A program made the translations under genes and the position numbers. 14,370 nt of DNA from Octopus sinensis (taxonomy: Eukaryota), in NCBI RefSeq assembly GCF_006345805.1, contig NW_021825808.1, positions 1 through 14,370 of the forward strand, in the 5' to 3' direction. Numbering within the stretch: position 1 is the first letter of the stretch; the number at the start of each line of letters is the position of its first letter. Positions 110 to 13,077 of this stretch are shown here, piece after piece. The notes beneath the pieces are model-generated. The model was not told where the DNA came from. It saw only the letters and a list, made by a program, of their open reading frames with translations, and did not search any database.

Positions 110-612
110 CCTTTAGCATTCAGATAATTTATTTGTCCTTGTGTTAAAACCGAAGGCTCGTGGCCTAGTGGTTAGGGTATTAGACTCACGACCTAGCGAT
201 TGTGGGTTCGATTCCCAGACCGAGCAGTGTGTTGTGCTCTTTTCGCGATGCTCCAGTCCACTCCTCTGTAAATGGGTAGCCATGGGAGAGGACTACTTTT
301 TCCGATCAGGAGAAAATGTTGTCCTGCTCACCCAGCTAATAGGGTGGCGTCGTTCGAAAGTCAAAAAGCAATGCAAAGGGCATTGTGACCAGCGATGTGT
401 AACTGCATCCGATTGTCCAACCGGTTACTTTGCCACGTGATGTTTAAAACTAACCAGATCCGGCCTCTCACACTTACCCTATAATGTCAGTCTAAAACTA
501 AACGATCGCAACTACGAAATCTTGAAACTATCAGACAATACAAAATTTATTCAAAACAATGCGAATAAATATAATTACATCTGACAGAATAATCTAAATG
601 GTAAATGGTCAA
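110..612. mobile_element. Decayed MITE (piggyBac-like termini), interrupted by the SINE at 153-441
   Basis: Left end TCCTTTAGCATTCAGATAAT (110-129) matches the reverse complement of the right end, CCATTTACCATTTAGATTAT (589-608), at 15/20. It resembles TTAA-CCCTTTAGCATT MITE termini (recalled). The TTAA sites are not intact. Confidence 0.45.
153..441 (+). mobile_element. tRNA-derived SINE family B (CORE-type), with internal deletion
   Basis: A-box TGGCCTAGTGG (161-171) and B-box GGTTCGATTCC (205-215). Head and TGCTCCAGTCCA motif are shared with the copy at 11722-11900. Candidate TSD TTAAAAC at 144-150 and 444-450. Confidence 0.85.
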
Positions 613-4579: not shown

Positions 4580-4920
4580 GGTACTGTAGTTAAGACATTC
4601 GCTTTACAACTAAGTTATTTTAAGTTCGATTCTTATTTCTTTATTACCCACAAGGGGCTAAACACAAAAGGGACAAACAAGGACAGACAAACGGATTAAG
4701 TCGATTACATCGACCCCAGTGCGTAACTGGTACTTAATTTATCGACCCCAAAAGGATGAAAAGCAAAGTCGACCTCGGCGGAATTTGAACTCAGAACGTA
4801 GCGGCAGACGAAATACCGCTAAGCATTTTGCCTGGCGTGCTAACGTTTCTGCGAACTCACCGCCTTTTCAGTTTGATCATACTGCACGGCCCTTTGGATA
4901 AATGTTTTCTGCCATTGGTA
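4580..4920 (+). mobile_element. Old SINE family C copy split by the family A insertion
   Basis: The left piece TGTAGTTAAGACATTCGCTTTACAACTAAG...GTTCGAT and the right piece GTTTGATCATACTGCACGGCCCTTTGGATAAATGTTTTCTGCCAT join into a degenerate version of 3710-3795. Confidence 0.5.
4631..4866 (-). mobile_element. Full-length tRNA-derived SINE family A
   Basis: Minus strand: head GGCGGTGAG...GAGTTCAAATTCCGCC, body GTCGACTTTGCTTTTCATCCTTTTGGGGTCGATAAATTAAGTACCAG, A-rich tail AATAAAGAAATAAGA. Imperfect TSD at 4618-4630 / 4865-4877. Confidence 0.9.
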
Positions 4921-7940: not shown

Positions 7941-7980
7941 TGTATGTATGTATGTATGTATATATATATATATATATATA
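7842..7980. repeat. (TA)n/(TATG)n microsatellite
   Basis: Seen directly. Confidence 0.95.
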
Positions 7981-8202
7981 TTAGGTTGGTGCATGATCAT
8001 TGCAGCTTTTTTCAATAAATTTGATTCAACAAAAATAATACATGCTTTTAACAAAAGCATCTTTAAATGATTATTCCGAACAATAAAGAATATTCACCAT
8101 CTACTTCAATTTCTGCTTGGCGTTTTGTTTAAATTGGCGTTTTCTTAAATTTTTTGTTGAATAGATTTTATTGAAGAACAACGGCAATAATTATGGACCA
8201 GC

Positions 8203-8206
<4 letters not shown>
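7981..8206 (-). mobile_element. Mariner-derived MITE (226 bp) with roughly 55-bp TIRs
   Basis: TTAGGTTGGTGCATGATCATTGCAGC... (7981-8036) matches the reverse complement of 8152-8206, TTAGGCTGGTCCATAATTATTGCCGT..., at 23/30 over the outer 30 bp. It is flanked by TA. Minus strand 8090-8110 encodes IEVDGEY, like a mariner transposase C-terminus. Confidence 0.88.
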
Positions 8207-8240
<34 letters not shown>

Positions 8241-8244
<4 letters not shown>

Positions 8245-9000
8245 ACAAAATGGGACAAAAACGCAAAACATCCAGACAGTTAGGTGATACAAAAAAGGGA
8301 CAACAAAACATCCAGATACACGATACAAAGAAAACAAGGACGGGTAATTCGGAATTTTCTTTCCTCAGTCGAATTCTAGATTATCTTTGCAATTTTAGCA
8401 GATTATACTCGAGATTGCTCCAATCTGGCCAGCCCCAAGCAAAAACTAAGCTAAGAGCATTAGATACCTTGGAAGAAAGCAGTGAATGTGTACGAAAACG
8501 AGGACGGAATAAACGGAGAATGTTACACAAATACAAATAACAGGACATAACAACAGGTGTCTTACGACTAAGGACGAATTAAAATAAACTGAGGTGTGTG
8601 GAAATATAGCCTTACGGCAGGGGTACATCAGGCTTGTTTGGTGAAAAGGGTGATTTCTGGACACCTGCAGAACGAAAATGAGACCCGTCAAAAGGCGGGA
8701 AAACTACTGTGTAGTCAACGACCAATTCAACAAGTACCTTGTCGCGGTAAACTGCCTGTGTGCTCCATTGACCTGGAGATCTATGCTTGAGAGAGAAAAA
8801 TCTTCAGGCAGGTCTTACCAAGCCAGAAAGGTCGACGGGAAGGAGACATACAAAACCTTAGCGGCAATAAATCGAAACATCGCCAGCAGGGCGTGGATTT
8901 AGTTATCGGCAGGACCTTAACAGATCAGATTCCTGGATTTGAACTAGCAGGATATCACGCAGAGGATCTTGAATACGAGACAATGGACGAAACCCTAATA
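8241..9000 (-). mobile_element. Non-coding interspersed repeat (probably Penelope-like-derived) inserted in (TA)n
   Basis: A 760-bp complex-sequence island bounded by (TA)n on both sides. It has internal 40-bp-period repeats (CAAAACATCCAGA at 8264 and 8304), a hammerhead-like motif, and no recognisable ORF. The class is inferred. Confidence 0.55.
8362..8428 (-). ncRNA. Candidate non-circularly permuted hammerhead ribozyme, core mutated (G12 to A)
   Basis: Minus strand: GCAAU-C-UCGAGU, 10 nt, AAA-AUUGC, 14 nt, AUUCGA-CUGAGGA. Stem III is 5 bp and stem I is 6 bp, both in exact register. The cleavage triplet is AUC. Confidence 0.5.
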
Positions 9001-9006
9001 TTCCTG

Positions 9007-11239: not shown

Positions 11240-11452
11240 TTTCGCAAGGACTAGTTCGACGAGTCGTGTTCTATCCTCACCTTCGAAACACGCTGGAGTT
11301 GAACTAGGGACAGCTGATGAAGGGGATTTTTCCTTGTGTAGTTGTCTTGTACTCTGTTTTTTCGTTGTTAAAAAAATGGTCCGTTCCATGCTTGTTTTTA
11401 CTTTTTCGTTTCTCGTTGAGTTTACGTCTATTTGTGGTGTCCTGTACTCACG
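11240..11452 (+). mobile_element. Short non-coding interspersed repeat between (TA) tracts carrying a hammerhead-like motif
   Basis: A complex island flanked by TA repeats, with a structured 5' half and a T-rich 3' half. Organised like the minus-strand 3' end of the 8241-9000 element. Confidence 0.55.
11251..11335 (+). ncRNA. Candidate non-circularly permuted hammerhead ribozyme, intact core
   Basis: CGUGU (11265-69), U11270, CUAUCCU (11271-77), CACCUUC, GAA-ACACG (11285-92), 14 nt, GGGACAG (11307-13), CUGAUGA (11314-20). Stem III is 5 bp. Stem I pairs at 6/7. Stem II is weak. Confidence 0.55.
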
Positions 11453-12857: not shown

Positions 12858-13077
12858 AAGGCAGCTGCGAGCTGGCGGAAACGTTAGCACACAAGACCAA
12901 ATACTAAGCGGAGATTCGTCGGTCTTTACTTTCTGAAATCCCATCCCGCCGAGGTTTACTTTGCCTTTCAATCTTCCGAAGTCGATAAAAATAAGTACCA
13001 GTTGAATACTGAGGTCGATATAATCGACTTAACCCTTTCCACCGAAATTGCTAGCCCTGAGTCAAAACGTGAAACCA
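12858..13077 (+). mobile_element. SINE family A, older copy with an alternative 3' tail
   Basis: GAGCTGGCGGAAACGTTAGCAC...CGCCGAGGTTTACTTTGCCTTTCAATCTTCCGAAGTCGATAAAAATAAGTACCAG...ATCGACTTAA matches 4696-4866 (reverse complement), then diverges. Confidence 0.82.

What the first reader, a model, noticed from the sequence alone, without database searches (positions are those of the whole stretch)
8362..8428. Second, sequence-unrelated repeat with the same permuted hammerhead architecture
Seen on the minus strand: CCAGAUU-GGA-GCAAU-C-UCGAGU-AUAAUCUGCU-AAA-AUUGC-AAAGAUAAUCUAGA-AUUCGA-CUGAGGA. Stem III is GCAAU/AUUGC (plus 8414-18 / 8389-93) and H17 is C (8413). Stem I is UCGAGU/AUUCGA (8407-12 / 8369-74), directly abutting CUGAGGA (8362-68). 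There is an outer helix AGAUU/AAUCU. The stem III'-to-stem I' linker is 14 nt, exactly as at 11.3 kb. Different stem sequences with the same geometry amount to natural covariation and make chance less likely. G12 reads A (UAAAA where CGAAA is expected), consistent with CpG decay, so this copy is probably inactive. No convincing stem II is present.
Basis: partly seen in the sequence, partly recalled or inferred. Interest (0 to 1): 0.72.

Follow-up and report, generated by a model that had tools for sequence, protein, structure and literature searches.

The report
Split-core hammerhead ribozyme in jumping repeats
This is a worn copy of a very common non-coding jumping repeat whose intact copies carry all the parts of a hammerhead RNA, predicted to cut itself, in a scrambled order with the catalytic core opened and closed again by two extra helices; the same wiring ends Naiad retrotransposons from comb jellies to octopus, so it is likely the ribozyme that this group was reported to lack.

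Summary
Stem II exists, supplied by a strand upstream (8434-8429), not by the bases after CUGAGGA. Among the first 100 core-word sites of this genome, 42 have stems I and III (null 3.4); 21 of these have a perfect upstream stem II, 0 a downstream one. The A9/G10.1 break is closed by helix P0 and hairpin Q, a predicted four-way junction; a kink-turn sequence joins stem III to the outer helix. So it is not type SGC (Eckert 2023) but a further wiring, not found in my nine paper searches. By eye, 10 of 54 published Naiad consensus sequences carry it and 6 nematode Naiads carry type CSG. The carrier here is a ~740-bp non-coding tandem repeat. This copy (G12A, damaged stems) is probably dead. Cleavage is untested; RNA reads show no cut-site pile-up. 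The scan noted this motif before on other DNA; the four-way-junction lead came from there.

The parts
8241..8627 (-). 5'-truncated copy of repeat family A (full unit about 731-739 bp, non-coding); 3' end runs into (TA)n at 8240-8206
   Evidence: 815 first-look candidates, 40 scored, 39 other copies at 91-94% identity
8473..8478 (-). P0 5' arm (UUUCUU), pairs with the six bases right after A9
   Evidence: 6 of 6 pairs in 23 of 28 family-A rows
8435..8472 (-). hairpin Q, ends on the base before G10.1; two mismatches in this copy (8466, 8440)
   Evidence: 8 of 8 closing pairs in 19 of 28 family-A rows
8422..8428 (-). outer helix P, 5' arm
8419..8421 (-). kink-turn sequence, non-bulged strand (G3n, G2n, A1n); predicted from sequence
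8414..8418 (-). stem III, 16.x strand, U16.1 = 8414
8412..8413 (-). C17 (8413) and predicted scissile bond between 8413 and 8412
   Evidence: analogy to the hammerhead core; not shown to cleave
8407..8412 (-). stem I, 1.x strand
8397..8402 (-). stem II, 11.x strand; decayed here (one mismatch, two wobbles; majority CCAGCC)
8389..8396 (-). G12-A13-A14 box (G12 changed to A at 8396) and stem III 15.x strand
8383..8388 (-). kink-turn sequence, bulged strand (3-nt bulge AAA, G1b, A2b, U3b); predicted from sequence
8376..8382 (-). outer helix P, 3' arm (G8377A mismatch in this copy)
8362..8374 (-). stem I 2.x strand (8374-8369) and CUGAGGA box (C3 = 8368, A9 = 8362)
8356..8361 (-). P0 3' arm (AAGAAA), directly after A9; cannot pair with the 11.x strand
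11246..11325 (+). second copy of the same architecture, family B; cut short at (TA)n, lacks G10.1, Q and the P0 5' arm, one mismatch in stem I

Best explanation
The stretch is a decayed copy of a hammerhead-type RNA structure, predicted to cut itself when intact, near the 3' end of a non-coding retroelement that is likely a passenger of Naiad-type Penelope-like elements. Shown by covariation: strand order P0 - Q - II(10.x) - P - III/UH/I - II(11.x)/GAAA/III - P - I/CUGANGA - P0. Inferred: stem II stacks on the A9.G12 core pair across a four-way junction with P0 and Q, which replaces the A9-G10.1 bond; a kink-turn bends P back so that it ties the far ends of stems I and II together, as the I-II helix does in types SGC and CSG; cleavage falls after C17. 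Inferred role: cutting read-through or tandem transcripts into unit-length RNAs (possibly circularised) for reverse transcription. This copy, with G12A and damage in stem II, Q and P, is probably inactive.
For: Core words CGAAA-N22-28-CTGANGA: 35,333 matches against 4,845 for the reversed pattern. First 100 unique sites, chosen by core words only: 42 have UH plus stems I and III (null mean 3.4, max 10 in 200 runs); in these 42 a perfect 5-bp Watson-Crick stem II lies upstream in 21, directly downstream in 0, in a 12-nt downstream window in 0, further upstream in 0. Phage control: 2 of 80 sites with stems I and III, 0 with stem II. Covariation: 17 of 24 pairs change on both sides in 10 A-type sequences, 5 of 6 in stem II; 12 of 15 in 12 B-type sequences, 4 of 5 in upstream stem II against 1 of 5 for the downstream register. 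G10.1-C11.1 kept in 19 of 22 representatives. Hairpin Q closing just before G10.1: mean -6.5 kcal/mol, 19 of 33 at or below -6, against -0.04 and 1.7 of 33 when shuffled; P0 at least 4 of 6 pairs in 18 of 33 against 2-3 of 33 at offsets 5 and 8. Kink-turn GA/GA at the expected places in 20 of 42 sites, a GAA/AGUA loop in 10, neither in 12; definition from PMC8191799. By eye the same wiring ends Naiad consensus sequences of a ctenophore, four cnidarian species (five entries), two octopuses and two further entries. In this genome a Naiad RT remnant and the motif lie on one strand (L136, L131 against L317/L318). One extra base between A9 and G10.1 is tolerated in nature.
Against: No cleavage assay. 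About 1,900 family-A-like reads from three unstranded RNA-seq runs of one study and probably another species show no pile-up of ends at the predicted site. A crude five-pair test of the P0/Q junction did not beat shuffles (19 of 36 against mean 14.7), P0 is only moderately above family swaps (3.6 against 2.8 pairs of 6), and Q is more stable if extended by one or two bases into G10.1, which would compete with stem II. Sites are copies of a limited number of families, so counts overstate independence; the sequences in alignments A1 and A2 were picked as good copies. The Naiad supplement was parsed by eye only. Family A shares no coding sequence with a Naiad, and Craig 2021 calls cephalopod Naiads long inactive while family B copies are 95-98% alike, so the mobilising partner is uncertain. 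No precedent for activity with helices inserted at A9/G10.1 was found.
Confidence: 0.72

Rival explanations
1. It is an ordinary type-SGC hammerhead: stem II forms with the bases just after CUGANGA (one or two extra bases allowed), and has decayed in family A.
For: In B-type families C11.1 can pair with an invariant G one base after A9, followed by two wobbles (73% of cells paired); the A2 subfamily has GGCU five bases after A9.
Against: Family A has no such pairing while keeping the upstream strand in 33 of 34 rows; 0 of 42 perfect downstream helices; only 1 of 5 downstream pairs covaries; the downstream G run is accounted for by P0.
Confidence: 0.06
2. The helices are real, but the active form is assembled from two tandem units or two molecules, as proposed for minimal PLE hammerheads, not by one knotted chain.
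For: Family A occurs in head-to-tail tandems 731-739 bp apart; dimeric activity is proposed for metazoan PLE hammerheads; the one-chain fold needs two crossing helices in one loop.
Against: All partners lie within 125 nt, stem III is a full 5 bp and not palindromic, and types SGC and CSG with similar knots cleave as single constructs.
Confidence: 0.09
3. The fold is a conserved signal that no longer cuts (for example a 3' recognition site for the reverse transcriptase), derived from a hammerhead.
For: No cut-site ends in RNA reads; minimal PLE hammerheads cleave poorly in vitro; 8 of 9 predicted Xenopus retrozymes did not cleave.
Against: Every catalytic position stays fixed across families whose stems have fully turned over, N17 is C, A or U, and N7 varies freely; the non-G N17 was part of my filter.
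Confidence: 0.12
4. The pairings are chance in an AT-rich, repeat-rich genome.
For: The window copy alone folds no better than shuffles; loose descriptors do give stray hits (1 of 2 hits in 600 kb of evenly spaced stretches looked like chance).
Confidence: 0.01

Closest known systems
Type-SGC hammerhead (HRIMA-1 and variants; Eckert et al. 2023, PMC10085705; read parts 1-6 of 8, supplement not opened)
   Same: Order cleavage site, GAAA, CUGANGA; short linker from stem I to stem II; extra helix tying stems I and II; two pseudoknots.
   Different: There stem II follows CUGANGA directly, and the paper assumes that block cannot be split; here the strand comes from upstream and P0/Q close the gap. 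SGC was found only in metatranscriptomes, none in genomes of known organisms.
Type-CSG hammerhead (same paper; two metagenome sequences, both cleave)
   Same: Same cyclic order of blocks and same I-II helix. By eye six nematode Naiad consensus sequences carry a full CSG form, one with an extra U between A9 and G10.1.
   Different: The form here equals CSG with two helices inserted at A9/G10.1 and the chain opened in P0 instead.
Minimal type-I hammerheads of Penelope-like elements (Cervera and de la Pena 2014, PMC4209133; read parts 1-2 of 4)
   Same: In terminal repeats of PLEs, thousands of copies, G10.1-C11.1 kept, extra base at 9/10.1 common.
   Different: Type-I order, short palindromic stem III, proposed dimers. 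Here stem III is complete and the order is non-circular.
Naiad elements (Craig et al. 2021, PMC8557442; passages, metadata table and searched passages of the consensus file)
   Same: (TA)n insertion, tandem and inverted copies, short tail; the octopus Naiad 3' end has the same wiring, spacing and kink-turn sequence.
   Different: The paper reports no canonical hammerhead, only 'HHR_core' and 'HHR_half_core' marks. Family A itself has no EN or RT.
Non-LTR retrozymes (Li et al. 2026 preprint 10.64898/2026.07.22.740005; read parts 1-3 of 5)
   Same: Non-coding tandem units with one hammerhead per unit, derived from PLE ends.
   Different: Defined there by a type-I hammerhead; not met here.

Membership tests
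Hammerhead ribozyme | Core CUGANGA, GAAA, UH | tested here: met
   Family majority has all; 15 of 34 rows intact in core and four helices. Not met in the window copy (G12A).
Hammerhead ribozyme | Stems I, II, III abutting the core, with covariation | tested here: met
   stem II abuts G12 and starts with G10.1-C11.1
Hammerhead ribozyme | Self-cleavage after N17 | not testable with these tools
   RNA reads show no ends at the site; unstranded library of mixed, decayed copies, so weak
Type SGC | Block order S, G, C | tested here: met
Type SGC | Stem II strand directly (0-2 nt) after CUGANGA | tested here: not met
   0 of 42 perfect downstream helices against 21 upstream
Type CSG | CUGANGA block first, contiguous with stem II | tested here: not met
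   CUGANGA is last in this repeat
Minimal type-I PLE hammerhead / non-LTR retrozyme | Type-I order with short palindromic stem III | tested here: not met
   no stem I partner downstream of CUGAGGA; stem III is 5 bp
Non-LTR retrozyme | Non-coding tandem unit with one ribozyme per unit | tested here: met
   spacings 731 and 739; longest ATG frame 57-85 aa in 3 of 3 units
Naiad | N-terminal GIY-YIG followed by RT | tested here: not met
   family A unit has no such frame; Naiad remnants exist elsewhere in the genome
Naiad | (TA)n insertion, tandem/inverted copies, 30-40 nt tail | tested here: met
   shared with other PLE clades, so not diagnostic
Kink-turn | Duplex, 3-nt bulge, tandem G.A/A.G | tested here: met
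   sequence only: bulge 8388-8386, G1b/A2b 8385-8384, G2n/A1n 8420-8419, -1b:-1n C:G, 3n = G; the bulged-strand GA is invariant in 10 of 10 rows
Kink-turn | Kinked fold, L7Ae binding | not testable with these tools
   needs FRET, structure or binding assay

The most novel reading that the evidence does not exclude
A seventh natural hammerhead wiring: the catalytic core is opened between A9 and G10.1 and closed by a perfect four-way junction, with a kink-turn or loop-E elbow folding the I-II brace into place. It is the long-missed ribozyme of Naiad retrotransposons across animal phyla, arose from the type-CSG form kept in nematode Naiads, and sits in tens of thousands of copies in one animal genome.
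Probability: 0.62. Interest if true: 0.88.

Novelty: new variant of a known kind. Interest (0 to 1): 0.78.

Why it matters
It would break the stated rule that the CUGANGA block cannot be split, extend non-circular RNA permutations from environmental RNA to animal genomes at very high copy number, and overturn the view that Naiads spread without a hammerhead (which was used to argue that hammerheads may merely parasitise PLEs). Related elements carrying CSG and split forms give a natural series for how non-circular permutations arise, a question Eckert et al. left open. An opening inside the core is also a handle for ribozyme engineering. A 125-nt transcription assay tests it directly.

Tried and rejected
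8626-9005 as the coding part of the element: it is a separate ~570-bp repeat. Type-I reading downstream of CUGAGGA: no stem I partner. Joining of A9 to G10.1 by splicing: AG before G10.1 only in some B families and no GU after A9. GIY-YIG elements with C-terminal nuclease as carriers: the motif in L212 and L222 follows the element's end, and 14 of 30 such loci have their own type-I hammerhead. Evenly spaced 600 kb: only 2 strict hits, too few to test. Crude junction score: not discriminating. In one search the automatic choice of the upstream strand was misplaced for L139 and L233 and maximised pairing, so its stem II counts are not used as the test. RNA: no RNA holder listed on record; family B got 0 reads, no test. 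Naiad RT fragment found no relatives in metagenome contigs or the protein collection, so no second species could be analysed by script. Pfam did not recognise the RT fragment and gave GIY-YIG below cut-off. Forgia 2023 and Perreault 2011 passages showed only short core insertions, none of helices at A9/G10.1; their figures and supplements were not seen.

Full report
Observation. The stretch alone folds no better than shuffles and Rfam has no hammerhead hit, but the strict S-G-C descriptor hits it and only 1 of 300 shuffled windows.

The carrier. The window belongs to a 2.72-Gb animal genome, octopus-like by its repeats (inference: a motif of the published octopus Naiad end matches 599 times, control 0). 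8330-8470 has 815 first-look candidates; the 39 other copies scored are 91-94% identical. The copy spans 8241-8627, is 5'-truncated, ends in (TA)n and abuts an unrelated repeat at 8626-9005. Longer copies define a unit of about 740 bp in head-to-tail tandems (spacings 731 and 739) and inverted pairs, with a short tail; three units examined have no ATG frame over 85 aa. These traits match Penelope-like elements as described by Craig 2021 (passages).

In 34 aligned rows from 30 loci the majority has G12 (23 of 34), C11.1 (24 of 34) and Watson-Crick stems I and III; 15 of 34 are intact in core and all four helices. These rows were the ones most like the window copy, so they lean towards its changes.

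Known frame. The order S-G-C is type SGC of Eckert 2023, shown to cleave, found only in metatranscriptomes; that paper assumes CUGANGA and its stem II strand cannot be separated (text parts 1-6 of 8; supplement not opened).

Stem II comes from upstream. In family A the bases after CUGAGGA cannot pair with those before GAAA, but GGCUGG at 8434-8429 can, starting with the canonical G10.1-C11.1 pair. I tested this on sites chosen without regard to stems. The core words occur 35,333 times against 4,845 for the reversed pattern. Of the first 100 unique sites (109 rows before 9 duplicates from overlapping loci were removed), 42 have UH and at least 4 of 5 pairs in stems I and III (null 3.4). In those 42 a perfect 5-bp stem II lies upstream in 21, directly downstream in 0, in an equal downstream window in 0 and further upstream in 0. 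Phage contigs as outside control: 2 of 80 and 0. On hand-picked family representatives, 17 of 24 pairs (A type) and 12 of 15 (B type) change on both sides; the downstream register manages 1 of 5. The shuffle control of that tool ignores relatedness.

The break is closed. Following it, I found that the bases after A9 pair with an upstream arm (P0; 8478-8473 with 8361-8356) and that a hairpin Q (8472-8435) fills the space up to G10.1. A crude score did not separate this from shuffles; an energy test did for Q (mean -6.5 against -0.04 kcal/mol) and moderately for P0 (at least 4 of 6 pairs in 18 of 33, against 2-3 of 33 at offsets 5 and 8; 3.6 against 2.8 pairs in family swaps). Q is more stable when extended into G10.1, so the boundary is uncertain by 1-2 bases and Q could compete with stem II. 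Inference: stem II stacks on the A9.G12 pair and P0 on Q, keeping the core geometry without the A9-G10.1 bond. One extra base at that step is natural and can raise activity (review passage; Cervera 2014 parts 1-2).

The elbow. Between stem III and the outer helix P, family A has a 3-nt bulge followed by tandem G.A pairs, with C:G before the bulge and G at 3n, a standard kink-turn that the published rules class as folding in ions (PMC8191799 part 1). 20 of 42 sites have this pattern, 10 have GAA/AGUA (recalled as the loop-E motif), 12 neither. Inference: the bend lets P run back to the far ends of stems I and II, the role of the I-II helix in SGC and CSG.

Naiads. Craig 2021 found no canonical hammerhead in Naiads but marked 10 'HHR_core' and 8 'HHR_half_core'. 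Reading places with CTGANGA in the consensus file by eye, I see the split wiring in 10 of 54 entries: Naiad_Bfor (stem I only 2 bp), 3_Chem, Amil, Aacu, Anas, 2_Movir, an entry in part 12 (probably Plae), one in part 19 (name not seen), Obim and Ovul; P0 and Q are clear in seven of them; an entry in part 25 fits partly. Six nematode entries (1-3_Nbra and entries in parts 13, 15, 16) show complete type CSG. I saw none in the bivalve entries, but line breaks, three unseen places of one search word and variant cores could hide some. In this genome Naiad remnants have EN before RT, and RT or 3' UTR sequence links to the motif on the same strand in L136 and L131. That family A rides on Naiads is inference from shared wiring, spacing and insertion habit; elements with a C-terminal nuclease and long open frames also exist here and carry their own type-I hammerhead.

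This copy. G12A, one mismatch and two wobbles in stem II (duplex -2.1 against -5.0 for a copy with one mismatch), a mismatch in P (-2.2 against -7.3) and two in Q. G12 is a core position (established hammerhead knowledge), so the copy is very probably dead. The 11.3 kb copy has lost G10.1, Q and half of P0.

RNA. Three raw RNA-seq runs of one study gave 696, 695 and 531 family-A-like reads, both directions equally, with no pile-up of ends at the predicted cut. This gives no support; it is a weak test because the library is unstranded and pools decayed copies. Family B gave no reads.

Novelty. Nine searches of the held library found SGC/CSG only in Eckert 2023 and no split-core form; subscription papers, figures and unopened supplements may hold more. 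Eight earlier notes of this scan describe the motif on other DNA; they are not independent evidence. A second look-up adding kink-turn and CSG returned none. Verdict: works like a hammerhead, not a member of types I-III, SGC or CSG; new variant; cleavage untested.

Noticed in passing
L205, L208, L217, L220-L230 (14 of 30 GIY-YIG loci): Elements with a C-terminal GIY-YIG and a cysteine-rich linker (Neptune- or Nematis-like) carry a minimal type-I hammerhead with U3-A8 in place of C3-G8 near their 3' end; some have open frames of about 780 aa.
   Followed up: partly
Craig 2021 supplement, nematode Naiads: Six entries show a complete type-CSG hammerhead with long I-II helix, a type so far reported from two metagenome sequences; read by eye only.
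   Followed up: partly
window 11246-11440, +: Family B copy of the same architecture; 1,926 candidates, scored copies 95-98% identical, so a young family whose mobilising partner is unknown.
   Followed up: yes
window 8626-9005: Part of an unrelated interspersed repeat of about 570 bp (300 candidates, 83-88% identity) with broken reading frames on the + strand.
   Followed up: partly
window 7980-8206: Short element with terminal inverted repeats of about 26 nt between (TA)n runs, MITE-like.
   Followed up: no
window 156-226, +: Rfam tRNA match (36 bits, above the gathering score) without an ARAGORN gene; with related inverted copies at 1-106, 4738-4863 and 12864-12989 it may be a tRNA-derived SINE.
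   Followed up: no
L317:3275-3365: A Naiad remnant whose 3' UTR stops in (TA)n right at the predicted cleavage site; a single case, may be chance.
   Followed up: no
L030, two copies: G10.1-C11.1 reads A-U on both sides within family A, a possible compensatory change or two independent decays.
   Followed up: no
Craig 2021 supplement, parts 16-19: Several arthropod Naiad entries have CCCC-CUGANGA motifs that I did not resolve; they may be yet another wiring.
   Followed up: no
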